Shown here: piece by piece, positions 3,642 to 58,100 of the stretch | Layout: every line of letters begins with the position of its first letter | How positions within the stretch are numbered: the first letter of the stretch is position 1 | Virus record (IMG/VR): IMGVR_UViG_3300005533_000243 | Location: 1 to 59,845 of that record | Reading direction: 5' to 3' (one strand) | Source: a virus | Taxonomy: Duplodnaviria > Caudoviricetes | DNA: 59,845 nt | The notes under the pieces: generated by a model | The model's input: only the letters and a program-made list of their open reading frames with translations | The model's database searches: none | Told to the model about the DNA's origin: nothing | Position numbers and translations under genes: made by a program

Positions 3642-6600
3642 TTAGGCTTCGTCGATGAAGTTGGCGTGCGGCGAATTATTCAGGTCGATTTCCACGAGAT
3701 ATTCAGACGCGACCGCGTACTGCGTTCCCGAGCCAATGAACCCGCGCACGGTCTTCGCTTTGAACTCGCGCTCGAGCGCGCGATTGAAGATATGGCGGGA
3801 ATAGTTGTTGTCGCCCAACCAGTTAGACAGCTTCGTGGAGCTGATCCGCATCAGCTTCTGATCGAGGCCGACGTGCACGTACACGCTCTCTAGCCGAGAG
3901 GCATCACGCTTCACCACGATGCCGGATGGCTTGCCCTTCGAGGTGTGGATGCGGTTGGTGTAAAGCGTGTGGCGGGCGCGCATCTCATTCAGAAATTGCG
4001 CGAGAATGTTGGACACGTTCATCGTGTCCTTCATGTCCACCGGTTGGCTGGCGCGCTCGCTCCGCATTCCGGCAAGCGTAGTGATCATGAATTGCTTCAG
4101 CCCCTCTTCGTCGATCTCCGTGAACTTCAGCTCGTTTGAGTATTTCGCTCCCAAACAGACGCAGGTGATCAACGCCGCCCAAAATCTTTCGTCGGGCTGT
4201 ATCCTGAGTTCGGTCTCCAGATTTTTGAAGTAGGAATTGACTTCAGAGTTAAGGCGCGCGTGGTGCGCTCCCAAAAACTTCGCGAACTCAAGTCCGACGA
4301 TGCCGTAGTTATCGTGCAGTGCACCAAGCAGACTTTGTGCATCAGCGAGCGCAACCTGAGCACCAATCGCTGGTGGTACTTCGTATTCGAAGACGCGATA
4401 CAAACCAGCCGTCGTCATTTTTGTCCTCGTCAACACGAAGTCGAGAAGACTTTCATTCGACGCCGAAACTAGAATCGTTTGCCACGTCCCCGGGTTCCGC
4501 TGCTGGGACGACTGCGTTAACCGCGACTTTTCTTTTCCTAGGGAAAGCTGGAACGCGAGATTGACGAACTTCTTCGTATCGTCTTCAGTTTTCAGCTCGT
4601 CCCAAAAGAGGGGCAGCGAGCGGATCTCGCCGATCTTGTTGACGACGGAGTTCTGCGTATCTGAAAGCCCCTGCATGGCTTTAATGGGATCGCCCCACAC
4701 CGCCTGCGCGATCTTGAGCGCAGTCGATTTTCCGATGCCGGACTCGATCGAGTAGAGGCTCATGAGGAGCCCCGTCTGGCCGGTAAAGCGCACGAGCGGC
4801 GCGCCGAAAGAGGCGGCAATCACCGCGTCTAGCGCCGGCCGCTTCTGTTGCGTGACCATCTTTGCCGCCGTGATCCACGGCTCGATGGCGCCGGTCGGCT
4901 CGTACTGCTGCGCGATAACGAAGTCGGGGCTGGCGGCTTGGCGCTCGCCGTTCGGCGACCAGACGTGGCCACCGAAACAGAAACCGTCGATCTTGCCGAA
5001 GGCGGTGTTCCACCCGAACGGCACGGAGGAGACGGTCATCCCCTTCGTCTTCTGAAGCTTCTCGATCCAGCTAACCACGAATTCCACCGTCATGCTGGTC
5101 TCGCCCTTGCGGAGCGGAACACCCTGCGCCCATAGCGTCGAGCGCATTCCCGCGTCGTCGCTTACGTCGGTAAAAGGGAGGGTGATTTTTTTCTGCCTCC
5201 CACTATCCAGAATGGTTGTGAAGTGCAGTGCCCACGGACTAACTTGTAGCCAGGGGTCCTGCATCGGATACTTGCAGATCGGGATGAAGTCTTGCTGACC
5301 GTCTTCACGCGTGGTGATTTTGAGAACGACGCCGTCGGCGCGTCGGACATAACCAGTCGGTAGGTCGGACTGGGAAACGGCGGGCTGAGGTGGACCACCG
5401 AATTGGGTTCCAGATGGAGCCCCGCCAGCTTGGCCGTTACCAACACCAGCGACATTCCCAGGTAGATTCCCACCACCAGCGTTAGGAGTGGGAGAGTTCC
5501 TGGGCGTGAAATGTAGTGGCGATTTCCCAGCGGCGAAGTGGACGCAGCTCTGGCAGAGCTTGCAACCGCTGCCACTGATCGTGCGGCACGCCGGCCAGCC
5601 GAGGCCTTTGGCTTCTTTCTCGCGTTCTTTCCTGTCGAATAGCTCATCAGTGCTCTCCTGGGTGTAGCCCGGATGCTTGTTCGCCATCCGGTGCGCGTCC
5701 GCGCGCGGATTGTCCGTGAACGTCGCGATCAGCGTCGTCAGGTTCCACAGCGGATTGGTGAAAGCCGCGCCGCCAGTATCGAGAGCATCGCGAATGAACC
5801 CACACTCAGACTTGAGCTCATCGAGCTTGATCGGCGCGGCCCTTCCCATATCGACTCCCATCGCGAGCGCACTGTCGCCCGTGATCGGGGGCCGAGACGG
5901 GAAAAGCGAGGGGTCGATGTCTTTGGTGATTGGTGCGGCGACGCGGTACGGCTCGAGCGCCGCCCAGATCCGATCGACTGCGTAATCGAAATCGGTCCGG
6001 CCTCCGGTGAGGCGAACGGGACGCGGCGGCTCGGTCTTCCGGTTGAAAGTGTCGGGCACGCGCAAAACGCGCGCCGCGTCGATTGTGCATTGCGTGTCGC
6101 ATTTCAGGCCGAGCTGCTTCGTGGCTTCGGCGAGGGCGAAAGCGAGCGGGTTCCACTCGGGCGGCGTGAGTGCGCGCGCAAGCGTCCAGTAGACGTGCAT
6201 CCCACCGCCCGACGAAACGATCAGGCTCGGCTTCGGCATGTTGGATTTGGCGAGGAAGTTACCCAGCGAGGTAACGGCCTCGTCGGGCGTGTCGTAGCCG
6301 TGATCGCCACCCTTGAAGTCGATGTCGATGAACAACGACTTGAGGTAGGCGGCGTTCGCCTGCGAGCGTACGGGCGTGAAATACTTGCCGCCGCTGCGGG
6401 CGGCGGTCTTTTCCGTCGCCGTCCGCTGCGAGCTCATGCACGCATAGATGTCGCGCGTAGTGGAATTTTTTAGCGCATACTCGATCGCCCGCACGGCTTC
6501 GTTGAGCGATCGACATGCGCGCCCCGTCCACGGCGCCTTGCGCCCCGGCTCGAGATCTGGGGGCACAAAGGTCCAATGGATATTCACGAAGGTAGGAGCT

Positions 6601-11380: not shown

Positions 11381-11743
11381 TTATGCGGCTACGGATGGTT
11401 TCGTTTCGCTCTCCGTAACCTGCGGGGTAATCATCCCGCGGATTTTTTCTTTGGTTTCTTCGTCGAGCCAGTAGCCGACGTTGCGCCGCGAGTGGATTTG
11501 GATCTCCCACTCTTTCAGGTGGCGGCGAAGGCGGTGAACGGCGACCTTGGCGTCAGTCGCGATCTCGAGCCGCTGCCGGATGATTTCAGGCGTGACGGTA
11601 TCGAGTGAGATGAGAAGGCCGAACAGATTGTTCTGGGCCGGGGAGAGACGAAACGTGTTAGCGATGGTCTGATTGTTCTGGTTGAGAGCGGCACGCAGGT
11701 CTCGCAGTTGCTGCCGCAGAACTTCGATTTCGTCGTCCGACAT
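11381..11743 (-). CDS. Orphan OmpR/PhoB-type winged-helix DNA-binding protein with N-terminal coiled coil
   Basis: FRLSPAQNNLFGLL...AKVAVHRLRRHL...IHSRRNVGYWL. Confidence 0.78.
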   Translation of the reverse strand: MSDDEIEVLRQQLRDLRAALNQNNQTIANTFRLSPAQNNLFGLLISLDTVTPEIIRQRLEIATDAKVAVHRLRRHLKEWEIQIHSRRNVGYWLDEETKEKIRGMITPQVTESETKPSVAA

Positions 11744-11872: not shown

Positions 11873-13783
11873 TCACTTTGCATCGCCGTATGTCGGGCCG
11901 CTTCCGACCTCCGCGGCGAGCGGAAGGTCCAACGCCCATTGCGGGCGCCGCACCATTTCCTCGTGAATAATTTTCTTCACCTCCGCGACGTGTTGCTTCG
12001 GCGTGATGAAGACGAGCTCGTCGTGCGCTTGCAGATTGAGCCACACGTTGTACTTGGCCACGCGCCGCTGAATTCGTACGGCAGCAGACATAGTCACGAT
12101 GCGGGCGATCGCTTGCACGATGTTCTCGAGCAGCGCTCCACCCCAAATAAATTTGGTCTTGGGTCCGTACTTGAAGCGCCACTGACCGCCTTCTTGCTGG
12201 AGGTCGCGATAGAAGAGACGTAACCCGCTGGGTAACAGGATCGAGCCCTTCTCGATCAGGCACGGACCGAATTCAGCACGGCCGCCGCCGGACAGGATGT
12301 TGAGATGCGCGCCGAGCGTTTTCCACGCACCCGAAATCCGGTAGTTTTTTCGACGATAAGTTTTGACGGTCTTGATCGACGTCTCGTCGTCCAACTCGAT
12401 CGCGGTACCGATTTGTTGCTTCGATAGGATTTTGACCGAGCGTTGAAACTTCTCCCAGCCGACGCCGAAGCCGAGGCTGAGAATTCCGGTCTTGCCGACG
12501 AAGCCCATGCCGACTTGTTGCGGATCAGGATCACCGTTCGGGAGTTTTGCCTTGCGGTTGACCGGCTGGTCGAACACTTCGGATGCAAAGTCCGAATAGA
12601 CGTCGGCTCCGCGCGCGAACGCGTCAACAAGATCAGTCTGGCCGCAGATCCACGCGGTAATGCGCGCCTCGATTTGTGAGGCATCGGCGACAACGGCTTC
12701 TTCGTCCGGGCCAACCGTGAGTGCGCGCCGGAGCGCCTTGACGCCGTCGCGCGCCGGCATGTTCTGCATATTGATTTTCCACTCGCCCGACAGGCGATGT
12801 GTATGCGCGCCGGAGAAGCGCAGCGGCACCGGCATCAGTCCGACTTGTCCCTTACCAGGCCAGTTCAAGGCGGCAATCTCGAGCAGGCGCTTGGTGCGCG
12901 TCTCCTCGAGCGTGCTCTTGTGACCCAATCGGGCGGCGATCAGCGCCTGCACCGCGGGGTTGTCGTCCTCCTCAAGTGCGAGGAAATCGGGATCGGTCTT
13001 TGAGAACGCCCACGTCGAAAGCCCGGTCGTCGGCGAAATCTTCTTCGGCGGTTCGCACCCGACGTTCCGCAGGAGCTCGGCGAAGCGATCGTTCGACATC
13101 AAATCGCTCTTGCCGTCGACGCCGCCCGCGAGCATTGCCTGGGCGAGAAGTTCGTTCTTCTGCTGGACGATGCTGTTGAGGTGAACAGCGAGTTTCGGCG
13201 CGTCGAGAATGAAGCGCGGTTTGATCGCGCAACGCAGGACCATATCCATGACCGGCAGCTCTTCGGCCGGGAATTCACCCGACTCGACAAGCTTCTCGAA
13301 GATCCCTTCGTTCAGATCGTTATCGTTGAGCGCGTACACCTCGTAATCCGGCCAGAGGCCGGCGGCCTTGATGGCCGCGCCGCACATGCCCTCGACTTTG
13401 AGGATCGTCTTGCCTTTCGCCGGCAGGCCCAGATGCTCCGCTACGGTTTCGAGGTTGAGGCGCTTGAGTTCGGAGCCGCGGCAAGCGCGCGCGACCCCCA
13501 TCGTGTCGACCATCAGCTTGGGCACGAAGTCATATTTCCACGCTGTGATGCACATATCGAACAGCGCGTTGAAAGTTACCATGCAGGTATCTTTCGGATC
13601 GAGCGACGCAAAGTAGGCGCGGAGCTCCGCGTCCTCGAGAAAGACACCGGGTTGACGCCGTTCTTTCACGGCGCAGCCGATCATTTCGAAGCGGGGATCG
13701 AGGATGTATTGCACCGGCGTCATGCGGCGCAGCGTGTATTCCTTGGAGTAGAACGTCTCGTAGTCGAGGAAAACGAATTTCAT
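11873..13783 (-). CDS. polA: Family A DNA polymerase with 3'-5' exonuclease
   Basis: ExoI FLDYET, FNALFD, THRLSG, NMQNMP, motif A ADASQIEAR, motif B KTGILSLGFG, motif C QAHDEL; alternative GTG start at 13798. Confidence 0.95.
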   Translation of the reverse strand: MKFVFLDYETFYSKEYTLRRMTPVQYILDPRFEMIGCAVKERRQPGVFLEDAELRAYFASLDPKDTCMVTFNALFDMCITAWKYDFVPKLMVDTMGVARACRGSELKRLNLETVAEHLGLPAKGKTILKVEGMCGAAIKAAGLWPDYEVYALNDNDLNEGIFEKLVESGEFPAEELPVMDMVLRCAIKPRFILDAPKLAVHLNSIVQQKNELLAQAMLAGGVDGKSDLMSNDRFAELLRNVGCEPPKKISPTTGLSTWAFSKTDPDFLALEEDDNPAVQALIAARLGHKSTLEETRTKRLLEIAALNWPGKGQVGLMPVPLRFSGAHTHRLSGEWKINMQNMPARDGVKALRRALTVGPDEEAVVADASQIEARITAWICGQTDLVDAFARGADVYSDFASEVFDQPVNRKAKLPNGDPDPQQVGMGFVGKTGILSLGFGVGWEKFQRSVKILSKQQIGTAIELDDETSIKTVKTYRRKNYRISGAWKTLGAHLNILSGGGRAEFGPCLIEKGSILLPSGLRLFYRDLQQEGGQWRFKYGPKTKFIWGGALLENIVQAIARIVTMSAAVRIQRRVAKYNVWLNLQAHDELVFITPKQHVAEVKKIIHEEMVRRPQWALDLPLAAEVGSGPTYGDAK

Positions 13784-13876: not shown

Positions 13877-13916
13877 GGCGCGTCGAGGATGGTGGTCCTC
13901 GGCGCGCCTTTTATTT
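13877..13916 (+). terminator. Intrinsic terminator-like hairpin facing antisense to the operon
   Basis: GGCGCGTCGAGGA-TGGTGG-TCCTCGGCGCGCC followed by TTTTATTT. Confidence 0.55.
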
Positions 13917-14625: not shown

Positions 14626-14832
14626 TCAGTTACCTCCGTGGTAATTTTCGGTGGCTTGCGTGGTTTCACCGCCATGATTACGGCCTTGAGGGGATGCGGA
14701 ACCTCGCCTTGTCTCGCCTATCCACGCGGCCTCATGAAAGAACCGCGCGGCCTACGTTCGCCCATACAAACAGCGGGAATGTCGGAACCGCCATCTGCAC
14801 TGCCACCGGTGGAAGCGGGGGATAACCTCCCC

Positions 14833-17144: not shown

Positions 17145-17168
17145 GGTGGGTTACCTCCAAGGTAAAGG

Positions 17169-18619: not shown

Positions 18620-18634
18620 CGTTACCTCGTGGGG

Positions 18635-19177
18635 TTACGCGGCCTTGGATCTCTTCAGCTCACGGACAAACTTGCGGACGTCGCCGACGAATTCCTTCAG
18701 CGATCCGAAATTCTGGATCGTGTAGTCGGCGGGGAAGTTCATCAGCTCGCTGGGATGCGACGACTTCGGAAACAGTTCCGGCCGGTCGATCCGCAAAATG
18801 AAACCGCCCGCGGCTTTGATGGCGCGGGCTTCATTCTCAAATCGGCAATCCTCGGCGACGACATGCAGCTTGGACGGCAGCATCTGGCACGAACGCTTCC
18901 ATGCATTGATCCAGAGGTCGGGATGGATCATGTCGCGGCCCCACTCGGAGCCGAGCGTTTGCATCGCGTGCCGCGGAGTGCGGCCGCCGAGCAACGCGCA
19001 TGGCGTTTCTTTCAGCGAGCCTTCTATCTCTTCGTCGTTGAGGCCGAGAGCACGCATCATGTTCTTGAACGGCGCGGCGAAGCGCACGCGCGCAAAGCCC
19101 AGCTCTTCGAATTCGACGGCGGCCGTGCTCTTGCCGGCGCCAATCTTTCCGGTGATGCCGATGACGAGACGTTTCAT
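18635..19177 (-). CDS. Deoxynucleoside monophosphate kinase
   Basis: IGITGKIGAGKST, FAAPFK, TPRHAMQTLGSEWGRD, DCRFENE, HPSE. Confidence 0.9.
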   Translation of the reverse strand: MKRLVIGITGKIGAGKSTAAVEFEELGFARVRFAAPFKNMMRALGLNDEEIEGSLKETPCALLGGRTPRHAMQTLGSEWGRDMIHPDLWINAWKRSCQMLPSKLHVVAEDCRFENEARAIKAAGGFILRIDRPELFPKSSHPSELMNFPADYTIQNFGSLKEFVGDVRKFVRELKRSKAA

Positions 19178-19261
19178 TGATCGCTTTCTTGCAGGTGGAA
19201 GACATGCGCCAGTAACCCCGCAGGGTTACGCGGGGGTCACATTTCAAAATCGTTCAGGAAT

Positions 19262-20108: not shown

Positions 20109-20452
20109 TTCGTAACCTCGTCAGGTAACTTCGGCACGCGGCCCATCCAGGGCTCAGGCTTGATCGCCCGCATCCAGTCGACGAACGACGGGATATGTCC
20201 GAAGTCCTCTTGAACGTGCTGCTCGCCAACCCACCGAGTCGGTACTTCGCGGCCGGTGCTGATCTTCACGATCGGTCCAAAGAGCTGCACGCAGAGCATG
20301 ATGCCCTCGGCGTGATGGCGCAGCGCGCGATGTCGAAAGTCGCAACTGATCGCCTTCGATCCGTCGAACCATTGGTGGATGTGCAGGTAATCTTCCGGCG
20401 TTCCACCCCACTTCTTCGCGCTCGACCTCGCGTGGTGATAGGGGTCAGCCAT
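20105..20452 (-). CDS. DUF6915-like protein
   Basis: PYHHARSSAKKWGG..EDYL.IH.WFD.SK...RHRALRHH..G...VGEQHVQED. Confidence 0.8.
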   Translation of the reverse strand: MADPYHHARSSAKKWGGTPEDYLHIHQWFDGSKAISCDFRHRALRHHAEGIMLCVQLFGPIVKISTGREVPTRWVGEQHVQEDFGHIPSFVDWMRAIKPEPWMGRVPKLPDEVTK

Positions 20453-21205: not shown

Positions 21206-21264
21206 GGGCTCACCCCTGCGCGCAGCGTCGCGCGTTTGAGTATCGCGTGGGTAACCTTGCGGGG

Positions 21265-21597
21265 TTACTCGGCGGAATTTTTCAGGCGGTCTAGCTTCTT
21301 CTGAAGCGACCGGATAAGCCCGTCGTTCAGATCGAGCGTGCGATCCTGCCTGAACTTGTGGTGTGGATGTTCCGGCACTGGGCCGGCTTCCAGTCGGCGA
21401 TTTCGGTCGCGCAAATACTTGATGCGTTGTTCGAGCGCCGCGATTTCGACGGCTGTATTTGCCGGCTTTGGTTCGGGCGTTTTTGGTTCGTGAGTGCGCG
21501 CCACTTCGATCGGCGCTTCTCGCACCTCGCCACGCTTGCGTTTCAGAAAATCGGGAATCTCCAGCTCGGCGTATTCGTCCTTATTTTCTTCGTCCAC
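21265..21597 (-). CDS. Hypothetical protein (LEIPDFLKR motif, coiled coil)
   Basis: ORF fits the operon; ELEIPDFLKR resembles the FtsZ C-terminal core peptide (LDIPAFLR). Confidence 0.65.
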   Translation of the reverse strand: MDEENKDEYAELEIPDFLKRKRGEVREAPIEVARTHEPKTPEPKPANTAVEIAALEQRIKYLRDRNRRLEAGPVPEHPHHKFRQDRTLDLNDGLIRSLQKKLDRLKNSAE

Positions 21598-21874: not shown

Positions 21875-22174
21875 CTCACCACCAGACCATCGAATGACCC
21901 AATAGCCAGGCGACGTAACCCAGCGAGGTTACCGCGGCGGCGTAGGCAGCGAGTGGAGTGAGCATCAGCGGGGTTCCGTGATTTCGTGGTTCGGTGGTGT
22001 TATTTGGTAGGCTTCTTCGATCGGCGCTTCTTCTTGATCTTGCCTTGCGCGCGGAGTTCGCAGAGGGTTTCGAACCTATGATCGCTGACCAGCTCGTTCC
22101 ACCCCTCGCCGATTTCGAGTTTCTCGATCGCCTTTAGGTGCGGTATCCAGTCTTTCTCCGTGCCGACAAAGAGT

Positions 22175-22748: not shown

Positions 22749-22986
22749 TGTTACCTCGCTGGTTACCTGTGAGTTCGATCAGGATGCACTGGGCCTGAAG
22801 TGGGTCGAGCCGCCGCCAGGTCTCTGTGACTTTGTTGTTTTTGTATCGGTAGACAAGATCGTAGAACGGTGTCGAGTTGGCTCGCATCCAAATAGAGATG
22901 TAGCCGTCGTCCGTGACCACGTGCGCGTATTTCCATAGCGAGCCATCGTCCACCGGCTCTTCCCACGGTATCTCGTCGAGCGTCAT
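22726..22986 (-). CDS. Small early protein, D-xxx-AQ paralogue family
   Basis: MTLDEIPW...LDPLQAQCIL; ATGA start. Confidence 0.72.
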   Translation of the reverse strand: MTLDEIPWEEPVDDGSLWKYAHVVTDDGYISIWMRANSTPFYDLVYRYKNNKVTETWRRLDPLQAQCILIELTGNQRGNNDPHSAA

Positions 22987-23463: not shown

Positions 23464-23698
23464 CGTTACCTCCGCAGGTAATGTGGTTGAGGATGCACTG
23501 GGCGGACGCAGCGTCGATGTTCTTGTGCTTGAAGAACATGTCGCCTTGCCCGTCCCAGTCACGCGAGCAGGTGTGTGAGATCGTGAACAGGTTGTTTTCC
23601 TCACGCCGCACAAAGTAAAAAATCCCGTCGCGGCCGAGCAGCATCTTCGTTGTGCCGCCGTCACCGTTGGTGAGGAACGGCAATTCATCGAGGCGCAT
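23456..23698 (-). CDS. Small early protein, D-xxx-AQ paralogue family
   Basis: MRLDELPF...IDAASAQCIL; GAGGT RBS. Confidence 0.72.
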   Translation of the reverse strand: MRLDELPFLTNGDGGTTKMLLGRDGIFYFVRREENNLFTISHTCSRDWDGQGDMFFKHKNIDAASAQCILNHITCGGNDG

Positions 23699-23785
23699 GG
23701 TTACCTCGCGTGGTTACGTTGGCGTGAGTGCGCGCGACACTACGGCGTGGCGTCACTGTGTTCACGGTGCATCTCCGCGTCACGA

Positions 23786-23923: not shown

Positions 23924-24179
23924 GGGTTGTCTCCATCGTGGTGTGGGTAGGCGTGAAGAAATTTCCTAACGAATGAATTTGAATATGTGTGAAGATGATG
24001 GGGTGGCGGCGCTGCTCACTCGCACGCTGGCGGGAACTGCCGCCACCCCACGCTCGCGGCTCTGGCCAACCGTTCAAGGGTCAGCCTGCTGCGAGCTACC
24101 GGCGCACTGCTCCCAACTCTTGGGTTCAGGGCATCACGCCCCTAGCTGCGCCGGGATACTTAGGCGTTACCTGTGGGGG

Positions 24180-24920: not shown

Positions 24921-25081
24921 TTCAAGTTGCTCCGTGGGTTGCCATCTCGCTACTCAGCGCCGGAGATAGCTGTCGGCGCGTGCGGGGAGAAATCCCCGCG
25001 GTGGTTCGCGCGTCGATACACGGCGTGCGAATTACGTGGTCTTGGTTGCCTATGGGTAACTTCACAGGTTACCCGACGCTC

Positions 25082-25402: not shown

Positions 25403-25564
25403 CTTATTCTCCATATTCTCCATATTCGCAGGAGATACAGGCGAATTATTTCGAGCTTCAATTCCAAAATGTAACCTAGCGAAAGTTACATTTTGGAATT
25501 GAGGGGTCGCGCGGGGGGTGTGTATCTAAAACCTATAGTAAATATAGAGAATATAGAGAATAAG
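25403..25564. repeat. Large AT-rich nested inverted repeat (origin candidate)
   Basis: Perfect 18-bp arms 25458-75/25485-502; 7-bp arms 25433-39/25521-27; 22/24 arms 25403-26/25541-64. Confidence 0.85.
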
Positions 25565-25938: not shown

Positions 25939-25986
25939 GGGGTAACCTCGTGGGTAACAAAACGATCAGACCATGAAATGAACAAA

Positions 25987-26461: not shown

Positions 26462-26610
26462 GCATGGTTCCGGTTCGGGTAGGGCGCTTGATTGCCCTAC
26501 AGCCTAGGTGCGGGGGCCGGGTACCCGGCGGGGTAACTGGACAGCGGGGGCCGCCGGGGGGGCCGCGCTTTTTTGGGGACTCCGGAAATATCCAGGACCC
26601 AAAATCGACG

Positions 26611-37476: not shown

Positions 37477-38547
37477 ATGCCCAAGCTTGCCGCTAAGGAC
37501 GACCCGAACGTAAAACTTCCGGCCGCCGCCCGTAGAGCTTCCCAAAACGCAGATCGCCTGCACGCGGAAGCGTACAAACCCCAAGACCCCAATCCAGATC
37601 CTGCCACTGCCGCGCCCGCCCCCGCAGCGGGCGAGCAGACCACCGAGGTTACCTCCAAGGTAACCGGTCAGCCGGAAAACGATCCTCCGGCGAATCCTCC
37701 AGCCGCGCCCGCGGCTGCCAACCCCAAGACGGCTTCCGCCGCCGGCGAAGACGACGACTTCAAACACAAATACCAGTCCCTGAAGGGGCGCTTCGATCAG
37801 CAAGCGAAAGCGTTGCGGGAGGCTGGCGATACCATCAGCACTCTGCGCGTGCAGCTCGCCGAGGCGGCGACTGCGCCACCAACGCGTATGCCTGCCGAGC
37901 AGTCGTTCAAAAAGCTCCTCACGCCCGATCAAGAGAAAGAGTTCGGCGAGGAATTTTTGGACGTCGTTGGCAAGAAGGCGCAGGAAGTTGTCGTGCCGGA
38001 GTTGTCGGTTATTCGCCGGGAACTCAGCGAGCTCGCCAATCGAGTTTCCAATACCGGCCAGCGGATCACGCAGGAGGCGCGCCGCCAGCTCGAGTCCACG
38101 CTAACGGAACACGTGCCAGACTGGCGCCAAATCAATGTTGATCCGAATTTTTTGGATTGGCTTGCGTTGCCCGATACTTACTCGGGTGATATCCGTCTCT
38201 CGTTGTTGAAATCGGCCTACGAGGCAAACGACGCCAGTCGTGTGGTCGCTTTCTTCAAAGGCTTCCTCGCTGAAGAGGCTGCCCTGGTCCCCGCACCAGC
38301 ATTGCCGGACAATCCGCCGGCGGATCCATCCGCCCAGCCGAAAGTCCCGCTTAATTCACTCGCGGCGCCAGGCAGAGCTAAGACAGCGGCATCCAATCCC
38401 CCCGCTGAGAAGCCCGTATTCACCCGTGCCCAGATCGCTCAGTTTTACGCTGACGTGACCGCGAACAAGTATCGCGGCCGCGAAAAAGAGAAGGACTCCC
38501 TGGAAAGGGAAATCTTCGCAGCGCAACGAGATGGGCGCATCCGATAA
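37477..38547 (+). CDS. Capsid scaffolding protein
   Basis: Pro/Ala-rich N-terminus, coiled coil, ends IFAAQRDGRIR; directly upstream of capsid gene. Confidence 0.75.
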   Translation: MPKLAAKDDPNVKLPAAARRASQNADRLHAEAYKPQDPNPDPATAAPAPAAGEQTTEVTSKVTGQPENDPPANPPAAPAAANPKTASAAGEDDDFKHKYQSLKGRFDQQAKALREAGDTISTLRVQLAEAATAPPTRMPAEQSFKKLLTPDQEKEFGEEFLDVVGKKAQEVVVPELSVIRRELSELANRVSNTGQRITQEARRQLESTLTEHVPDWRQINVDPNFLDWLALPDTYSGDIRLSLLKSAYEANDASRVVAFFKGFLAEEAALVPAPALPDNPPADPSAQPKVPLNSLAAPGRAKTAASNPPAEKPVFTRAQIAQFYADVTANKYRGREKEKDSLEREIFAAQRDGRIR

Positions 38548-48872: not shown

Positions 48873-50139
48873 CTATACGCCGATCGCTCAAGCCTCCGAA
48901 GCGTCTGCTGACAAAGCGTACCAACTGGGCGAAGACCAGCTCGCCTGGGCCAAGCAGCAATATGCCGAGAACAAGGACGTTACCGATCAGGTCGTCGGTT
49001 CATTCCTACAAACTCAGGATCTCAACGACCAATCGGCGCAGGCAGACCGAGCGCGATACCAGACCGAGTTTCAGCCGCTCGAAGACCAGCTCGTTCAGGA
49101 TGCGCAAAGCTATGCGACGCCGCAGCGCAAGGATCTCGAACGCGGGCGAGCGCAAGCGGCCGTCTCGCAGAGCTTCGATACGCAGCGACAGAATTCGCAG
49201 CGCGATCTAGAAGCCTTCGGCATCAACCCCGGTGCGACGCGCTTCGGCGCCCTCGACATCGCAACGCGAGCCCAGCAAGCCGCGGCCACGGCCGCTGCTG
49301 GCAATCAGTCGGATCAGATGGTCGATGCTACCGGCCGCGCCATCCGCTCGGAAGCGATCAACGTCGGCCGCGGATATCCAGGCCAGATCGCCGGCCAGTA
49401 CGGCACCGCGCTCACCGGAGGCACGTCGGCCGTCAATGCCGGTCTCGCTACAACCGCCAGCGGCGCCCAGACCATGGGCACGTCGCCGCAATACATGGCG
49501 CTAGGAAACAATGCGCTCGGCGTTTGGGGTAACACGCTCAACATGGGCTACCAAAACCAGCTCTCTGCGTTCAACGCGCAGCAGCAGGCTTCTTCCGGCT
49601 TCGGTTCGGCGCTCGGCCTCGCCGCCGGCCTCATGTTCGCGAAGGAAGGCGGTGCGGTTCCCGACCCGAAGCGGCCGTTCAGCGATCACCACTTCTACGT
49701 CATCCCGCGCGTCAACAAGCAGGGCAAGCAGCTCTCGCACGAAGAAGCGATGACCCATTTCTTCCATACCGGCGAGCATCACGGTGTGTTCAATTCGCCG
49801 GAAGAGGCGCAACAGCATTTCGCCGGCGGCGGTGTTCCACTCGACCAGACCCAAGGCGGCGGCGTCCCCGCCGGCGCTTCGCCGTCCGGAGGCCAGGCGA
49901 TTGACGACGTTGCCGCCCGCCTCACTGCCGGCGAGTTCGTCGTGCCGAAAGACGTCGCCCGGTGGAAGGGTGAAGAGTTCTTCCAGAAACTGATTTCGCA
50001 GTCGCGCAACGCCAAACAGAAGGCGGTGGCGAGACCGACATTCGGTCCGGCAATCCCGATGGGCGGAGCTCCACAACCGCGTCCGGGAGCGGCTCCCGCT
50101 CCCCAGCAAGCGCCGCGCGCGGCGTTACCCGTGAGGTAA
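48841..50139 (+). CDS. Internal virion/ejection protein
   Basis: MGKSSPPPPPDY start, A/G/Q-rich, DDVAARLTAGEFVVPKDV. Confidence 0.7.
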   Translation: MGKSSPPPPPDYTPIAQASEASADKAYQLGEDQLAWAKQQYAENKDVTDQVVGSFLQTQDLNDQSAQADRARYQTEFQPLEDQLVQDAQSYATPQRKDLERGRAQAAVSQSFDTQRQNSQRDLEAFGINPGATRFGALDIATRAQQAAATAAAGNQSDQMVDATGRAIRSEAINVGRGYPGQIAGQYGTALTGGTSAVNAGLATTASGAQTMGTSPQYMALGNNALGVWGNTLNMGYQNQLSAFNAQQQASSGFGSALGLAAGLMFAKEGGAVPDPKRPFSDHHFYVIPRVNKQGKQLSHEEAMTHFFHTGEHHGVFNSPEEAQQHFAGGGVPLDQTQGGGVPAGASPSGGQAIDDVAARLTAGEFVVPKDVARWKGEEFFQKLISQSRNAKQKAVARPTFGPAIPMGGAPQPRPGAAPAPQQAPRAALPVR

Positions 50140-50142
50140 CCG

Positions 50143-52122: not shown

Positions 52123-55100
52123 ATGGCCGAGGGTGATCCTTGGTGGAGCGGTCTATACAACGACAGTTCCGAAGCGCCTGCCCCAGACAATAGCAGCCCG
52201 ACGTGGGGAGATTACGGTAAAGCCTTAAAGTCCGGAGCCGAGGAGCTCGGAGCGTCGATTGGCGCCGGTATTCAGGAATACGCCAGCGACGAAACGCCAG
52301 AGGGCCGCCTCGTAAAGGAGATGGGCGGCGTTATCCGCCGCAATCTCGGTGACCAGGCAGAAGACACTTCGCAGTCCATGACGCCGGTGGCGCGCCAGCG
52401 CCTGGAGGCGTCGATCACCAGCCCCGAATTCTGGAACCATCCGCTCAGCTCGACGGCGCTCAAAGCGACAAAAATGTCGCCGGCTGCCGCCGCGATGATC
52501 GTTCCCGGCGGCCTGATCGCCGACGCCACTGCCGCGACGATCGCCACCGCCGGCGTTGGTGGCGCCCTGAACGTCGCGCAGCTTGTCGACAATGTCTACA
52601 AGATGGTCGACCAGCTTCCGGACGATCAGCTCCGCGCCAAGAGCGATTATTACAACACCCTCCGCGACTCGAACGTCAGCGAAGAGGACGCGCGACAGCA
52701 ACTCAAGAGCCGTCTCGTCACCGACGCCAAGCCGGCGCTCAACTTCGCTGTTGGCTCAGTCGCCGCAGCCCTTGGACCCTCTGCCGCCATCGTGCGCGGC
52801 GCCAAGGGCGCTACCGCCGTAATCGGCGCCGGCGAACGCGGAGCCCTGGGCCGGGCTGCCATCGGCGCGGGAGAAGCTGGTGCCGGCATGGGCACCCAAA
52901 CCGGAGTCGAGGAAGCGAGCCGCCAACAGGCCGCAATCCAAGAGGGCCTCCAGCAGAATTTCGATACCGACAAACTCGTCGAAGCGGTGCTCGAGCCCAC
53001 GTATCTGGGCGCCATCACGGGTGGCGCTGCCGGCGCCGTGATCAAGGGCAAAGGGGTAAAGACCGAACCCAAGCCGAAGGTTGAGACTGAAACCGAGACC
53101 ACGAGCCCCGCCGCCGAGGATCGCGGCGTTACCGACGAGAAGGTCGGAACGTCACAGGTGCAGAAGGGGACCGGCACAGGAAATCAGCCGCCGCCCCCCG
53201 ACGCCAAGCGCCCTGACGTTCGTTATCCGAAGCCCAGCGCCAGCGACGAAGAGAAGATCCGCTCGGCGACACTCGAGGACGTGCTCGCGCGCACGCGCCA
53301 GAACAAGGGCGCCGAGGTCGTGGATGTCGTGGGTCCGACGTCGGAGCAGGAGCTCGCGCTCGGTAAGACCGAACGTCTCGCGAACCAAGACGTAAATCCC
53401 GACGTAAACCCAGACCTTGTTGAGCGCCGCGACGACGTGCAGCCTCCCGCCGGTCCTCCGGAGCAGCCGGACGTTACCCAGGAGGTAACCGCCGCGCCCC
53501 GCCCCGCCGCGCCGCCCGCTCCCGAAGTCAGGCCCGAAGACGTCGCACCGCCCAAGGATGTGGAGACGCCGCAGGCTCCCCGCGTCCTGCCGGCCCTGGA
53601 TCAGGACACCGCGCAGAATGTGCGCGCGACCAACCAGAGGATCGCCGCCAATGTCAAAGAGGCGCAACCGAAAGAGCCCAAAGGCAAGAACCGGTCGAAG
53701 ACTGATCAGGAGGCGCGCGCCAAGTCAGCCGCGGCGGCCGAGGCGCTATTCGTCCGGAGCGTGCCCGACGAGCACGTCATGCCCACGACGCCAGCGCAGC
53801 GTGGCGAGCTGCGCGATCGCCTGAAGGCGATCTCCGACGAGGCCGATAAGCTCGGGATCCAGGTGCCGACAAAGGTCGGATACGCCAATACGCCCGACCA
53901 CATCGTGTGGCTGCGCGAGGTCAAGAATCTCGCCAAGCGCATGGACCAGAAGAGCTTCGTCGGGAAGCGCGCCGCCGAGCATATCGGTACGTTCCTCGCC
54001 CGCGAGAAGGCTGCAAAAGCTGGCGACTTCAGCGTGATGCGTAATGAGCGCAAGGCTGAGGGCGACCTCGCCATGCGCCGCGACCAGGGCGAAGTGGAGA
54101 ATGCAGCGCCCTCGGCCGGCCTCGTCGCCGAGTCGCCTGAAGACGCGATCATCCGGCGCGAAGAGGAAGAGGGTCGGGTTGCGCCCGAAGCGCCCCGTCC
54201 GGCCCCGAAGCCTCGCGCCCCCGAGACCCCCGAGAAAGCGTCGGCGCGCACCAAGATCGAGGAGATCAAGAAGAAAGCTCGCGCCCAGGCCGAGGCGAAA
54301 GAGGCGGAAGAGAAAGACCGCCCGTGGCGCCGGATCCAGCTCACTGAGGAGCAGAAGAAGGCCGCCATCGAGTCGCTCGAGAAGAACATGAAGCGCCCCC
54401 CGCGTCCCGAGCCGATTGCGGACGCGATGCGCGAGGTAGAGACGAACCCGACACCTGCGCAGAAGGAGGCCGGCAACTACGCTAAGGGCCACATCAACGT
54501 GCAGGGTCTCAAGATCTCGATCGAGAACCCGCGCGGCTCTGTGCGCCGCGGCGGCGCGCCCGGGAAAGAATGGGAGACGAAAGTCCCCGATCACTACGGT
54601 TATGTGAAGCGCACCGAGGGAGCGGACGGCGATCAGGTTGATGTGTATGTCGGCCGCCACCCGGACAGCGATCGCGTTTACGTTGTGGATCAGATGGATC
54701 ACCGAACCGGCCGCTTTGACGAGCACAAGGCAATGCTCGGCTATCGGACGCAAGAAGAAGCCGAGAGCGCCTACAAGCGTGGATTCTCCGACGGTAAAGG
54801 CGCCGCGCGCATGGGCGCCGTGACGGAGATGTCCGTCGGCGACTTCAAGAACTGGCTTCGGGAAGGCGACACGAAAAACCCTGTCTCCGAGTCGGCGCCG
54901 CGCGCTTCAACCGCGGAAGACGTCGGACGATTGCTCGACGAGGAAGCCGAGCGGAAGCAGCCTCCCCAGCCGATCCGTACGACTACCACCGGTGAAATCC
55001 TAAAAAATCTGGACCTGAAGCATCTGGCTGACGTGCCGGGTGCGATCCAGCCGTTTATCGCTCGCCGCCTGCGAAATCTGGTGGGGGACAACGAAGTCCA

Positions 55101-58100
55101 GGTCATCTCTAAAGACGATATGTCCAAGTGGCGCGGACCGAAGGATCTGGGCCTCTACACGTACGACCCCGAAACTCGGAAGACGATCGTTTACGTTCGC
55201 GAAGACCAATTCGCCAACAAGCGCCAGCTTGCGCACACGATGATCCACGAGGCGACCCACGCCGCTACCGTGCATTCGCTCGAGATGCACCCACAACAAA
55301 AAGAACTCGTTCGCCAGATGATGGGCGAGGTCGGGGAATTTTTGCATCACCCCGTCGACGCCAAACGTACACTTGCTCGGGACAAGTTCAGCTACGCGAT
55401 GACGAGCGAGAGGGAGTTCATCGCCGAAGCGTTTTCCAATCCGGACTTCCAACGCTTCCTTTCTCTCATCCCTACCTCGCGCGAGCTCTCCGAGAAGTTG
55501 TCGCTGGATCATCGGCGTTCCAGCTCCATGTGGGACGCGGTCGTCGACTATGTTCGCCGGATCGTAGAGCGCGTCACCGGAAAGATTCCGGGCGATGTGC
55601 ACAACATGATGTCAGCGATCATGCGCCACGGCGAAACGCTGATGAACATCGAAAAAAATCGCCAGATCCGAAATGGTGATATCCCTATAGCCTATGCCGA
55701 TCGCATCGAGGCACCGCTTACGATCCGCGATGCGATCGAAGGCGGCGCTGAGGCGGTGAAGCGAGTGGCCTCGGATCCGGTCGAGTCGATCAAGCAATTC
55801 GCTGATCGTCCGGACGCGTGGCGTCTCTTGAAGACGCTCGGCCACAAGCTGCTTACCAACGACCAGTTCCGCCAGCGCGTCGAGCCGGTCTTGCCGCACG
55901 CCAGAACGGTTTTCGACCTTGTCGAGAAGCAAGGCGTCTACGCGAACAAGCTGAAGCAGGAAGGCAACCGCCTGATTGCGGACCTGATGGGGCTCGAGAA
56001 GAAGCTCCCCGGTGCGTTCGACAAGTGGTCTGACCTCGTGAATCGCCAGACGGCTTTCGGCGTCGATGCGTCGTCGCCTCTTGGCATCAGCCGGAACGAA
56101 TATCTCGCGCTGTCGAAGACGAACCAGCAGCGCATGGCATCCGGCAAATACAGCCCCGAGGACGCGCCGATGGCGCATTGGGAGGCGCAAGCCGCGCATC
56201 CCGGCCTCGCCAAAGAATTCAACGACCTGGCGACCCAGCATCCGGAATTCCGCGAAGCCCAAGAGCGCCTGTTCCGTTTCTTCGAAGAAGCGCAGGCCGA
56301 CATGACGCGCGGCCACATCGACCAGTACCTGCGCGCTGCCGGCGTCGACGAGTCCACGCGCGTCACCGAATCGAAGCGTCTTCTGAATGCGAACCCGACC
56401 AAAGAGCTCATCGAGGAGCTCGAGAACAAGTATGGCGACGTGGTCGCGAAACAGATCCTCGATGCCAAGAAGCTCTCGGGAAAGGAGGGTGTCTACGCGC
56501 CCCTCGTGCGCCATGGCGACTACGTCGTCAGCGGCAAGTATAAGGTGGCGGAGCCCACGAACGCGGTGAATAAGGTCGACGAGAATACGTGGGAGTTCCG
56601 CACTCGCAAGGAAGCCTACAACTTCGCGCAGAAGACCGGCCTCCACTACAACGTCGACACGGTCTATTACGACCCGAATACCGGCGAGCGCACCACGAAG
56701 ATGGGCGGCCTGTCTCAGACGGGAAGCGCCGAGCAGCGGTACGAAGTCAACGTGCAGCGCAAGCACGTCGAATTCAGCGAAAGCCTGAAGGATGCACAGG
56801 CGCGCCAGAAAGAACTCCACGAGTCGGGCGTGCTCGAGCGCGAACCCTACGTCGAGGAGAAGCAGGACTACATCGGCCGCGATGCCGAGATCGGCGCCGG
56901 CGCGCTCCACACGATCATGAAGAAGCTCGAGCAGACGGATGAGTACCGTCGGGCCACGAACGTCCAGAAACAGGAGATGCGGAAGGCGCTGGAGGAGGCG
57001 GCTCTGGTTACCCAGGCAGGTAACCGTGTCCAATCCCGCCGGCTGCCGCGGCGCCGGGTGGAGGGGGCTTCCGACGACCTCACCCGCAACATGGCCATAT
57101 ATAATGACAGCCAGTCGAACTACCGAGCCAAGGTCGAGTTTCGCCCCAAGGTCGAGGAAGCGATCCGCGACATGCAGAAGTATGTAGAGGACAACCGCTA
57201 CTCGAAAGAGGGTGCGCTCGATCCGAATGCGCTTTCCCGCTCTGAAGCCGCAAACGAGGTGATTGCCCGCGCGCGAGCGCTGGATCCGAACGAGTATTCG
57301 GGCACCTATACCGACTGGACACGCCGGCTATCGACCTGGTCGTATATCGACCGCATGGCGCGCCCGTCGCACTTGCTGCTGCACCAGACGCACCTTCCCA
57401 TGATTACGGCGCCGTTCATCTCCGGTCGCCACGGGCTCGCGGCGACGTATGGAGTGATGCTGCGGACCTGGAAGACCGCCGTGCGGTTCTACCAGGCGGG
57501 CGGCAACGACTTCGTGAAGTCGATCGCCGACGGCCTCCACGAGGGGACCGACTACGACAAGCTCGTCAAGGAGAGCTTCAAGGGCGAGAAGGACAGCGGC
57601 CGCCTGAACAAGATGTTCGACACGCTCGCCGAGATCGGCCTGATCCATCCGCAGGCCGGCCTCGAGGTGCACAAGTATGCGCCGTCGCGACAGCTCAAGG
57701 GCGCGGTCGGCGTCATGGATAAGACGATCGCGAAGCTCGACACGGTCTTCCGCCATGCCACGAACGCCACGGAAGCGATCAACCGCTACGTCGGCGCGGC
57801 GATGGCGTATCGCCTCGAGTACGCGAAGCTTCGCAAGACGATGAGCGAGCAGAAGGCGCACGACGGCGCGGTCGAGTATGCCCGCCAGACGCTCGCCAAC
57901 ACGCAGGGCTTCTACAGCTCGACCAACGCGGCGCCGCTGTTCAAGAACAAGTGGCTGCGTCCATTCCTTCAGTTCCGCCAGTTCCCGCAGATGATGTACC
58001 ACCTGCTGATCAGCACGGCGGAGAAGGCATTCTCCGGCGACGACGTCCGGACGCGCGTGCAGGCGGCGGCGTCTCTTGCGACGGTGCTCGGCACGCACAC

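What the first reader, a model, noticed from the sequence alone, without database searches (positions are those of the whole stretch)
6258..57024. Genome-wide GTWAC-N7/8-GTWAC boxes fused to stop codons and ribosome-binding sites
Seen: 19 exact copies (6258, 8074, 12220, 16608, 18621, 19212, 20112, 21251, 21915, 22750, 23700, 24166, 25056, 25942, 31097, 37648, 50124, 53473, 57007), six one-mismatch copies (11415, 13575, 14629, 17150, 23465, 26520) and an N9 copy at the centre of the large hairpin (25471). In 18 of 19 exact copies the spacer starts with C and ends with G. Many sit at gene junctions, where one half-site supplies the upstream TAA and the spacer plus other half-site supplies the GAGGT RBS (e.g. 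8074, 18621; RBS only at 16608, 22750, 23700, 25942). Others are inside genes, where the 12-bp period yields VTxxVT peptides (VTQEVT at both 31097 and 53473, identical over 20 nt). My rough estimate of the chance expectation is well under one copy. Inference: a phage-encoded protein binds across the genome, analogous to mycobacteriophage stoperators or start-associated sequences, controlling transcription or translation initiation. I do not recognise this motif from any described phage.
Basis: partly seen in the sequence, partly recalled or inferred. Interest (0 to 1): 0.88.

Follow-up and report, generated by a model that had tools for sequence, protein, structure and literature searches.

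The report
Phage-wide palindromic GTWAC box motif
A 61-kb prophage and a whole family of related phages carry dozens of copies of one short palindromic DNA word, mostly at gene junctions, which looks like a set of binding sites for a phage-encoded regulator that has not been identified.

Summary
The window has 19 exact GTWAC-N7/8-GTWAC boxes against 0.08 expected from shuffles, and 36 at one mismatch or fewer against 2.8 expected. Of the 21 exact boxes in the 3.28-Mb genome, 20 lie inside one tRNA-Val-integrated prophage.

The real unit is a palindrome, GTTACC-N5/6-GGTAAC. It marks a whole phage family (Rhizobium phage RHph_TM3_14A, a Bradyrhizobium contig, IMG/VR contigs), with 23-67 core copies per 57-64-kb genome. 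One lineage changes the outer base and others prefer one spacing.

About half the copies sit in the roughly 10% of DNA that is non-coding. Only a minority touch a ribosome-binding site or supply a stop codon. In-gene copies exceed codon-preserving shuffles (9 against 0.81).

Between two relatives at 84% identity, the arms are conserved (180/187) and the spacers are not (67/87). The arms show no base-pair covariation, which argues against a hairpin and for duplex DNA read by a symmetric protein.

The reader protein is not identified. A winged-helix protein (11381-11743) is a candidate, but it is missing from two complete relatives that keep the motif. The closest analogues are mycobacteriophage stoperators and SAS/ESAS, but this motif is a member of neither. 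Earlier scan notes concern only this same window.

The parts
6258..6275 (.). exact box, N8 (GTTACC-N6-GGTAAC), inside the DUF927 primase-like gene
   Evidence: a box at the same alignment column in L021
8074..8091 (.). exact box, N8, at the junction of the SNF2 gene and the 7653-8072 gene
   Evidence: one half-site holds the TAA stop of 8088-9641; the other ends 1 nt before the GTG start of 7653-8072
12220..12236 (.). exact box, N7, inside the family-A DNA polymerase gene
   Evidence: a box at the same column in L016
16608..16625 (.). exact box, N8, 2 nt before the ATG of 16351-16605
   Evidence: 9 of 15 orthologues of this gene have a core site within 60 nt upstream
18621..18638 (.). exact box, N8, supplying the stop of 18635-19177 and ending 1 nt before the ATG of 18281-18619
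   Evidence: 8 of 11 orthologues of 18281-18619 have a site upstream
19212..19229 (.). exact box, N8, intergenic, 34 nt upstream of the start of 18635-19177
20112..20129 (.). exact box, N8, 3 nt before the ATG of 19803-20108
21251..21268 (.). exact box, N8, overlapping the stop of 21265-21597
21915..21932 (.). exact box, N8, intergenic, 40 nt upstream of the start of 21581-21874
22750..22766 (.). exact box, N7, 1 nt before the ATG of 22431-22748
23700..23717 (.). exact box, N8, 1 nt before the ATG of 23456-23698
24166..24183 (.). exact box, N8, overlapping the stop of the first early gene 24180-24920
25056..25072 (.). exact box, N7, in the leader 135 nt upstream of the first early gene; the only copy whose spacer starts with T
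   Evidence: 6 of 10 orthologues of 24180-24920 have a site within 60 nt upstream
25471..25489 (.). N9 variant, forming the inner ends of a perfect 18-bp-arm inverted repeat (25458-25475 / 25485-25502)
   Evidence: whether it belongs to the motif family is uncertain
25942..25958 (.). exact box, N7, 3 nt before the ATG of 25663-25938
31097..31113 (.). exact box, N7, in codons 3-8 of ORF 31091-31369 (excisionase/TerS-like HTH by PHROGs)
37648..37664 (.). exact box, N7, inside 37477-38547
50124..50140 (.). exact box, N7; the TAA of one half-site is the stop of 48841-50139, and the ATG of 50143-52110 follows after 2 nt
53473..53489 (.). exact box, N7, inside the 2260-aa gene
57007..57024 (.). exact box, N8, inside the 2260-aa gene
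14629..14645 (.). one-mismatch box, 3 nt before the ATG of 13915-14625
   Evidence: 5 of 14 orthologues have a site upstream
17150..17166 (.). one-mismatch box, 5 nt before the GTG of 16602-17144
23465..23482 (.). one-mismatch box, 1 nt before the ATG of 23197-23463
11415..11431 (.). one-mismatch box inside the 3' part of the winged-helix gene
13575..13591 (.). one-mismatch box inside the polymerase gene
26520..26537 (.). one-mismatch box in the central non-coding region
11381..11743 (-). candidate reader: 120-aa winged-helix protein found in most but not all family members
   Evidence: Pfam Trans_reg_C at 19.7 bits, below the 26.2 cut-off. Profile A2 against PDB matches PhoB-family domains at E 2e-4 to 9e-4. 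AF2 model at pLDDT 73.7; all listed fold matches are weak (E 0.02 and above) and nearly all are winged-helix proteins. Absent from complete relatives G001 and G003.
3163..3621 (-). second winged-helix protein (152 aa) in the lysogeny module, found only in this prophage
   Evidence: Pfam Trans_reg_C at 34.9 bits, above the 26.2 cut-off. No relative in 6 complete family genomes.

Best explanation
The boxes are copies of one palindromic cis-element, GTTACC-N5/6-GGTAAC. I think it is read as duplex DNA by a two-fold symmetric, phage-encoded DNA-binding protein.

The element is scattered over the whole phage genome. It is concentrated at gene junctions and leaders of the early arm. There the bound protein would most likely act as an operator or roadblock, switching early genes off (or on) as a block. 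Copies inside genes would add further binding sites.

The overlap with Shine-Dalgarno sequences and TAA stops is an economy of a tightly packed genome. GGTAAC is compatible with GAGGT, and GTAAC contains TAA. This overlap is not the core of the function.

Shown here: real enrichment, phage specificity, family-wide conservation, selection on the arms only, gene-specific positional conservation, and no hairpin covariation.

For: Enrichment:
- 19 exact copies against 0.08 expected.
- 20 of the 21 copies in the 3.28-Mb genome lie in the prophage bounded by 48-bp att repeats at a tRNA-Val.
- Copies inside CDS exceed 300 codon-preserving shuffles: 9 against a mean of 0.81 (maximum 4). For the core pattern it is 15 against 0.97.

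Family conservation:
- RHph_TM3_14A (capsid 76% identical) has 33 exact pairs.
- The core TWACY-N5/6-RGTWA occurs 23-67 times in each of 7 complete genomes.
- The reversed control pattern gives 0-1 hits against 25-57 in 4 of the 5 records searched; the fifth, which uses the other spacing, has 1 against 1.
- An IMG/VR scan with the strict palindrome listed 80 loci. Of these, 26 hold 3 or more core sites, and 19 of those 26 encode relatives of window proteins.

Lineage variants, as expected if site and reader co-evolve:
- L018/L019 use CTTACC...GGTAAG.
- L009 uses N5 in 17 of 18 sites; L017 uses N6 in 42 of 43.

Selection: between L007 and L008 (84% identity), arm positions are 180/187 identical against 67/87 for spacers (Fisher p = 2e-6) and 257/288 for flanks (p = 0.005). 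The polymerase codons for LTWPGN are CTT ACT ... GGT AAC in L008 and CTG ACC ... GGC AAT in L007.

Duplex rather than hairpin: there is no excess of pairable combinations. For W/W, 243 were observed against 236.6 expected. At position 5 there are 53 C/A mismatches, with p = 0.67.

Location:
- About half of the sites lie in the roughly 10-15% of non-coding DNA.
- Nothing is conserved in 45 nt of flank on either side.
- Sites recur upstream of the same gene families: 16351 in 9/15, 18281 in 8/11, 24180 in 6/10. They rarely precede the replication enzymes: PolA 2/18, SNF2 1/14, PDDEXK 1/16.

Candidate reader.
Against: - No reader is identified. The winged-helix family A2 is absent from 2 of 6 complete relatives (G001, G003) that keep 23 and 31 sites.
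- The universal first early protein 24180-24920 has a confident model but no DNA-binding or other known fold.
- Equal use of two spacings in this phage (13 N5, 13 N6) is unusual for a rigid dimer.
- Sites placed 1-5 nt before start codons of particular genes are also what a translational operator would look like.
- No promoter-like feature accompanies the sites.
- Five relatives with the motif have no tyrosine integrase, so a lysogeny-repressor model cannot be general.
- Gene calls are my own crude ones.
- There are no binding or expression data.
Confidence: 0.5

Rival explanations
1. An RNA-level translational operator. The transcript of the box (GUUACC-loop-GGUAAC, with the Shine-Dalgarno sequence in or beside it) is bound by a phage protein, or folds on its own, to control translation initiation or coupling of particular early genes, as T4 RegA or coat-protein operators do (those examples are recalled).
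For: In the window 8 of 19 exact and 3 of the 6 named one-mismatch copies end 1-5 nt before a start codon. Family-wide, 86 of 323 N6 sites do. The association with certain small genes is conserved across relatives. The default form GTTACC...GGTAAC could pair over 6-7 bp.
Against: There is no covariation between the arms. A/A, T/T and C/A combinations are as frequent as independence predicts. Where the first arm supplies a TAA, the stem would carry a central A-A mismatch. In 237 of 323 N6 sites no start codon is adjacent. In-gene copies are symmetric in their outer bases, as expected for duplex DNA.
Confidence: 0.15
2. A DNA-level mark with a role other than gene regulation. A dense, phage-private palindrome would let a phage protein tell phage DNA from host DNA, or organise it, for example in protection from a phage nuclease, replication, condensation or packaging.
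For: The motif is almost absent from the host: 1 copy outside the prophage in 3.2 Mb. It reaches about 1 per kb on phage genomes, late genes included. In-gene copies are created through synonymous codons. The motif is kept in relatives with or without the winged-helix gene and with or without an integrase.
Against: Density is strongly skewed to non-coding DNA and to the early arm and to particular gene starts. A uniform mark would not need this. No candidate enzyme or reader is known.
Confidence: 0.15
3. Module-boundary linkers. The short conserved junction sequences would serve as microhomology for recombination that shuffles early genes among family members, as proposed for the PeSL cassettes of T4-type phages (recalled).
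For: In L007 against L008, 7 of 34 homology breakpoints lie within 8 bp of a site, against 1.2 for random positions (p = 0.0005). The reverse direction (3 of 34, p = 0.10) and the L012/L020 pair (2 of 20 each way, p about 0.05) are weaker. Site density is highest among the variable small early genes.
Against: Against a null of gene-junction positions the excess vanishes: 7 against 5.3, p = 0.27, and the other three comparisons give p 0.53-0.74. In-gene copies, the palindromic form and the free spacers are not explained by this reading.
Confidence: 0.07
4. Binding sites for a host regulator, for example a CtrA-like response regulator. CtrA's box TTAA-N7-TTAA has the same layout as TTAC-N7-GTAA in the N5 form.
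For: The layout resembles the CtrA box described in PMC9437464 (passages read). Most known hosts are alphaproteobacteria.
Against: The host genome has no regulon of such sites: 1 copy outside the prophage, about what chance gives. The half-site differs from TTAA. In CtrA-controlled phages the sites cluster in one gap or terminal repeat, whereas here they are dispersed. One relative lies in a contig binned with a gammaproteobacterial MAG.
Confidence: 0.05
5. A composition artefact: frequent GAGGTAAC ribosome-binding sites and TAA stops happen to fall at similar distances.
For: GGTAAC overlaps GAGGT and GTAAC holds TAA. Some single half-sites sit at starts without a partner, for example 11357 and 27822.
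Against: The half-site distance histogram has only 12, 13 and 14 below 24. Shuffles give 0.08. Eleven of 19 copies are not at a start. The motif is conserved in relatives, including in genes.
Confidence: 0.01

Closest known systems
Stoperators of Cluster A mycobacteriophages (L5, TipsytheTRex); PMC9283540, passages read
   Same: Both have many copies of one short sequence distributed across a phage genome. In both a phage DNA-binding protein is thought to act at many places rather than at one operator. The paper's alignment covers 26 sites in TipsytheTRex, a number similar to this prophage's.
   Different: Stoperators are 13-bp asymmetric sites. They are read by a monomeric immunity repressor with two domains, and they are tied to lysogenic immunity. 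Here the site is a 17/18-bp palindrome with a free spacer of two lengths. About half the copies are inside genes. Five relatives without a tyrosine integrase keep the motif. No reader is known.
Start-associated sequences (SAS) and extended SAS of Cluster K mycobacteriophages; PMC3203893, passages read
   Same: Both are cluster-specific repeats absent from the host, conserved across subclusters and tied to particular gene families. In SAS the repeat sits 3-7 bp before start codons, contains the Shine-Dalgarno core, and sometimes holds the upstream stop. ESAS are inverted repeats with a variable spacer and lineage-specific consensus. Their authors also argued from the lack of pairing-preserving changes that a DNA-binding protein reads them.
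   Different: SAS is asymmetric, in one orientation, confined to the non-structural half, at 11-19 copies, and nearly always at a start. Here the site is palindromic and genome-wide, at 23-67 core copies. Only about a quarter of sites abut a start. ESAS arms are 17 bp with 4-13 bp spacers, whereas here the arms are 6-7 bp with a 5/6-bp spacer.
Dispersed repressor operators of other temperate phages and plasmids: P1 C1 operators, phiC31 conserved inverted repeats, KorB sites of RK2 (recalled; my two searches for a phiC31 paper found none)
   Same: One regulator acts on a dozen or more sites spread over a replicon. Some of those sites are palindromic and some lie far from promoters.
   Different: There is no sequence similarity. 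The ESM Atlas lead to the phiC31 repressor family for 24180-24920 (score 0.80) was not borne out by Pfam. Copy number here is several-fold higher.
CtrA boxes in alphaproteobacterial phages; PMC9437464, passages read
   Same: Both are dyads of 4-5-bp half-sites one helical turn apart, in phages of alphaproteobacteria, and are mostly intergenic.
   Different: The CtrA box is TTAA-N7-TTAA. It is read by the host CtrA and is clustered in one intergenic gap or terminal repeat. Here the box is TTAC-N7/8-GTAA, is dispersed, and is absent from the host genome.

Membership tests
Cluster A stoperators | 13-bp asymmetric site, oriented with transcription | tested here: not met
   The site is a 17/18-bp palindrome. 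In-gene logos are symmetric (left G 58%, right C 54%) and both arms are reverse complements.
Cluster A stoperators | many copies spread over the genome, mainly in short intergenic regions | tested here: met
   There are 19 exact copies in the window and 23-67 core copies in each relative. About half lie in the 10-15% of non-coding DNA.
Cluster A stoperators | read by the prophage immunity repressor (HTH plus stoperator domain) | not tested
   I did not search for that protein family. No binder is known here. The motif is kept in 5 relatives without a tyrosine integrase, which speaks against a purely lysogenic role.
Cluster K start-associated sequences (SAS) | asymmetric 13-mer, 3-7 bp before start codons, in one orientation, in the non-structural half only | tested here: not met
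   Eight of 19 exact copies abut a start; family-wide 86 of 323 N6 sites do. Copies occur in late genes (37648, 50124, 53473, 57007). The site is palindromic.
Cluster K extended SAS (ESAS) | imperfect 17-bp inverted repeats with 4-13-bp spacer upstream of an SAS; lineage-specific consensus; changes do not preserve pairing | tested here: inconclusive
   The same logic applies: lineage variants and no covariation. But the arms are 6-7 bp, the spacer is 5/6 bp, and there is no separate SAS, so it works alike without being a member.
RNA hairpin or translational operator | base pairing of the two arms kept by compensatory changes | tested here: not met
   For W/W, 243 pairable combinations were observed against 236.6 expected (p = 0.31). 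At position 5, 271 against 264.1 (p = 0.67), with 53 C/A mismatches. At position 6, 200 against 196.4 (342 N6 sites, with similar results for 152 N5 sites).
CtrA box | TTAA-N7-TTAA dyad that also forms a regulon in the host genome | tested here: not met
   The half-site is TTAC/GTAA. The spacing is 11 or 12 bp start to start. Only 1 exact copy lies outside the prophage in the host genome.
OmpR/PhoB-type winged helix (candidate readers) | Pfam Trans_reg_C above the gathering score | tested here: inconclusive
   3163-3621 scores 34.9 bits against a 26.2 cut-off, so it is met. 11381-11743 scores 19.7 bits, so it is not met. Profile A2 matches PhoB-family chains at E 2e-4 to 9e-4. The fold search returns MarR, ArsR, BirA and response-regulator winged helices at E 0.02-0.2. 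It is a winged helix, but the subfamily is open.
Reader of the motif (any protein) | present in every genome that keeps the motif | tested here: not met
   For the A2 winged helix there are no matches in complete genomes G001 and G003 (the one weak G001 hit lies antisense in the DUF2201 gene). Universal early proteins of unknown function exist (24180, 6689, 7653, 16351), but none shows a DNA-binding family.

The most novel reading that the evidence does not exclude
The box is a phage-private genome mark: a palindrome kept at about one copy per kilobase, even inside genes through synonymous codons. It would be read by a protein of no recognisable DNA-binding family that all members share. The winged helix would be only an accessory in some lineages. 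Through this mark the phage would treat its own DNA differently from host DNA, for example in block-wise shut-off of early genes, protection from its own nucleases, or recruitment of replication or packaging machinery. This would be a mode of self-recognition not described for phages of Gram-negative bacteria.
Probability: 0.2. Interest if true: 0.8.

Novelty: new variant of a known kind. Interest (0 to 1): 0.6.

Why it matters
Genome-wide repeated control sequences are well documented in actinobacteriophages (stoperators, SAS/ESAS). As far as my searches reach, they are not documented for this family of alphaproteobacterial phages (searches found no description).

The element defines the family so well that scanning IMG/VR with the motif alone retrieves its members.

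A cultured member (RHph_TM3_14A on Rhizobium etli) makes the question testable. If a single regulator acts on 20-60 sites, it would explain how the early genes of these phages are timed, and it would provide a compact orthogonal operator/regulator pair.

Tried and rejected
1. Hairpin or cruciform reading: rejected, because the arms do not covary.

2. Recombination-linker reading: breakpoints between L007 and L008 coincide with sites against random positions, but not against gene-junction positions. It stays a weak rival.

3. Composition artefact: rejected.

- Pfam and PHROGs on 60 protein entries of the window, a few of them scanned in both libraries. These gave no DNA-binding family apart from the two winged helices and the excisionase-like 31091 ORF.
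- The universal first early protein 24180-24920 was modelled at pLDDT 81.8 and is all-helical. No PDB fold match reached E 0.001 or better. Profile A3 against PDB gave only a weak hit named Rhobin9 (E 0.0045).
- The ESM Atlas lead to the phiC31 repressor family (0.80) was not supported by Pfam on all 9 members.
- Profile A4 (13915 family) gave nothing. The Atlas gave nothing for 10924-11199.
- Pfam Trans_reg_C run directly over 5 relatives found no match. It also missed the A2 members known to be there, so that blank is uninformative.

5. Complex prediction with two copies of the A2 winged helix returned 'no answer'. It counts neither for nor against dimerisation.

6. Expression: no RNA holder was listed for window 16000-25999.

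7. The promoter and terminator scan of 18500-27000 gave fewer promoter-like hits than shuffles and nothing beside the sites. Flank logos are flat.

8. Megablast of two window stretches against phage records found nothing. The relatives came from protein-level searches.

9. Literature. No paper holds 'RHph_TM3_14A'. The sequence-word search, a Rhizobium-phage repeat search and an 'RHph' search were read as listings only and showed no description of the motif. Two searches for phiC31 conserved inverted repeats found no usable paper. Supplementary files were not opened, so supplements of the Rhizobium phage papers could hold motif tables that I did not see.

10. Host CtrA reading: set aside.

Full report
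**What is there.** The window (59,845 bp, 61% G+C) holds 85 GTWAC pentamers. The distances between them are 12 bp (8 pairs), 13 bp (11 pairs), 14 bp (1 pair), and then nothing up to 60 except single cases at 24, 57 and 58. Dinucleotide-preserving shuffles give a mean of 0.04 for each spacing. At one mismatch or fewer there are 36 matches against 2.8 expected. In 18 of 19 copies the spacer begins with C and ends with G. The unit is therefore the palindrome GTWACC-N5/6-GGTWAC.

**It belongs to a prophage.**
- The window is the minus strand of contig C32, 48670-108514, of a 3.28-Mb genome.
- A 48-bp direct repeat lies at window -1094 and +60251. The latter is the 3' end of a tRNA-Val gene.
- A tyrosine integrase sits at 180-1277. 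The element is thus a 61.4-kb integrated prophage.
- The whole genome has 1361 half-sites and 21 exact pairs. Twenty of the pairs are inside this prophage and one is on contig C19.
- Outside the window the half-site distance histogram is flat.

**Gene context.** The gene calls are my own crude ones.
- Genes from 3.6 to 25.3 kb run leftward. They encode a DUF927 primase-like protein, an SNF2 helicase, a PD-(D/E)XK nuclease, a family-A polymerase, a DUF2201 metallopeptidase-vWA protein, an ATPase and many small ORFs.
- Lysis, terminase, portal, capsid and a 2260-aa protein run rightward.
- Of the 19 exact boxes, 8 end 1-3 nt before a start codon, 5 supply a TAA stop, 3 are otherwise intergenic and 6 lie well inside ORFs.
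- Ten of 19 are not fully inside a called CDS, although non-coding DNA is about 4.7 kb, or 8% of the window.

**A family signature.**
- The capsid protein is 76% identical to that of Rhizobium phage RHph_TM3_14A. That 60.9-kb genome has 33 exact pairs, 8 at 12 bp and 25 at 13 bp, and 28 of them have the form GTTAC...GTAAC.
- The DUF2201 protein retrieved 18 IMG/VR loci and 2 genome contigs. One contig is from Bradyrhizobium and one is binned with a Cellvibrionaceae MAG.
- Sixteen of the 20 loci carry exact pairs. L017 has 24 in 21 kb.
- The four without exact pairs (L012, L018, L019, L023) carry the same core, TTACC-N5/6-GGTAA. L018/L019 have the outer base changed, CTTAC-N8-GTAAG, at 9 copies against 0.09 expected.
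- The core TWACY-N5/6-RGTWA occurs 23-67 times in each of seven complete genomes.
- The same pattern read backwards occurs 0-1 times, against 25-57 in four of the five records searched. The fifth, G008, uses the other spacing and has 1 against 1.
- Lineages differ in spacing: L009 has N5 in 17 of 18 sites, L017 has N6 in 42 of 43, and this phage has 13 and 13.
- A scan of IMG/VR with the strict palindrome listed 80 loci. Of these, 26 hold three or more core sites, and 19 of those 26 encode relatives of window proteins. High density is thus peculiar to this family.

**Anatomy.** Logos from 365 sites give G-TTACC-Y...R-GGTAAC.
- In genes the left W is T in 89-94% and the right W is A in 84-89%.
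- In junction sites of the N6 form the left W is A in 48%. That is where GTAAC provides the upstream TAA.
- Sixty-four of 468 sites supply a called stop.
- In L017 three or four half-sites follow one another at a 13-bp period.
- Nothing is conserved in 45 nt on either side in any class. The classes are 86 sites abutting a start, 116 other intergenic sites and 121 in-gene sites.

**Selection.**
- L007 and L008 are 84% identical over 15.7 kb. At aligned sites the arm positions are identical in 180 of 187 cases, spacers in 67 of 87 and flanks in 257 of 288. Arms against spacers gives p = 2e-6, and arms against flanks gives p = 0.005.
- In-CDS copies in the window number 9 exact (15 core), against 0.81 (0.97) in 300 shuffles that keep each protein and its codon usage.
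- Some in-gene copies sit at the same alignment column in several relatives. The columns are polymerase 335 and 917, nuclease 102, ATPase 127 and DUF2201 147. The spacers differ there and the encoded peptides fit (V/L/I)T..G(N/K).
- L008 and L007 encode the same LTWPGN. L008 uses CTT ACT ... GGT AAC, which makes the box, and L007 uses CTG ACC ... GGC AAT, which does not.

**Duplex or hairpin.** If the arms had to pair, complementary combinations should exceed what independent base frequencies predict. They do not.
- For W/W, 243 were observed against 236.6 expected (p = 0.31).
- At arm position 5, 271 against 264.1 (p = 0.67), with 53 C/A mismatches.
- At position 6, 200 against 196.4 (342 N6 sites, and the 152 N5 sites behave alike).

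The symmetry is therefore that of a recognition site on duplex DNA, not of a folded strand. The authors of the ESAS description used the same argument (PMC3203893, passages).

**Gene-specific placement.**

| Gene family | Orthologues with a core site within 60 nt upstream |
|---|---|
| 16351 | 9 of 15 |
| 18281 | 8 of 11 |
| 24180 | 6 of 10 |
| 13915 | 5 of 14 |
| PolA | 2 of 18 |
| SNF2 | 1 of 14 |
| nuclease | 1 of 16 |
| primase | 0 of 6 |
| winged-helix gene | 0 of 10 |

Together with the skew to non-coding DNA and to the early arm, this points to control of gene expression rather than a uniform mark.

**Who reads it.** This is not settled.
- 3163-3621 is a Trans_reg_C winged helix at 34.9 bits, but it is unique to this prophage.
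- 11381-11743 scores below the Pfam cut-off at 19.7 bits. A profile of nine family members matches PhoB-family domains at E 2e-4 to 9e-4.
- Its model (pLDDT 73.7) has a helix, three-helix core, beta wing and C-terminal helix. Its weak structural matches (E 0.02 or above) are nearly all winged-helix proteins: MarR, ArsR/CadC, BirA, SaeR and AdeR.
- It is present in 4 of 6 complete relatives. It is absent from G001 and G003, which keep 23 and 31 sites.
- The universal early proteins of unknown function show no DNA-binding family.

**Comparison with known systems.**
- Stoperators are 13-bp asymmetric sites read by a monomeric immunity repressor (PMC9283540).
- SAS are asymmetric 13-mers placed 3-7 bp before starts in the non-structural half. 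ESAS are 17-bp inverted repeats with variable spacers (PMC3203893).
- CtrA boxes are TTAA-N7-TTAA, read by the host regulator and clustered in one region (PMC9437464).
- The present element works most like stoperators or ESAS, but it fails the defining features of each. It is best filed as a new variant of the kind 'phage genome-wide repeated control sequence'. My literature searches found no description of it.

**Verdict.** The link to ribosome-binding sites and stops is secondary, the named candidate proteins are unproven, and the level of control is open.

Noticed in passing
window -1094..-1047 and 60251-60298 (beyond both ends of the window; contig C32): A 48-bp direct repeat flanks the element, and the right copy is the 3' end of a tRNA-Val gene (60251-60325, minus strand). 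These are the att sites of a 61.4-kb prophage. One further exact box and three small ORFs lie between the left att site and the integrase.
   Followed up: partly
window 52123-58905: The 2260-aa late protein carries a Pfam InPase (inorganic pyrophosphatase) domain at residues 779-912 (E 3.9e-51). It is conserved at 26-34% identity in all six complete relatives.
   Followed up: no
L017 2112-2142 and 3410-3453: Three and four half-sites follow one another at a 13-bp period just before a start codon, as if the half-site rather than the pair were the repeating unit.
   Followed up: partly
window 25406-25565: The perfect 18-bp-arm inverted repeat (25458-25502), whose inner ends are GTAAC/GTTAC, is itself flanked by inverted tandem repeats of about 10 bp.
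   Followed up: no
window 24180-24920: The first early protein is universal in the family. It is modelled confidently (pLDDT 81.8) as nine helices and has no PDB fold match. Its only sequence-profile hit is a weak one to a chain named Rhobin9.
   Followed up: partly
window 10924-11199 and 9921-10208; A6: A small protein family ending in ...LFPSD.L..QLRLL is present, sometimes twice, in nearly all relatives between the polymerase and the nuclease genes. No known family matches it.
   Followed up: partly
window 29056-29583: A fatty-acid hydroxylase domain protein (Pfam E 5.9e-13) lies directly after the peptidoglycan-binding lysis protein.
   Followed up: no
window 59630-59845: A very basic 71-aa protein (pI 11) with weak HNH-endonuclease similarity is conserved at 43-68% identity in all six complete relatives.
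   Followed up: no
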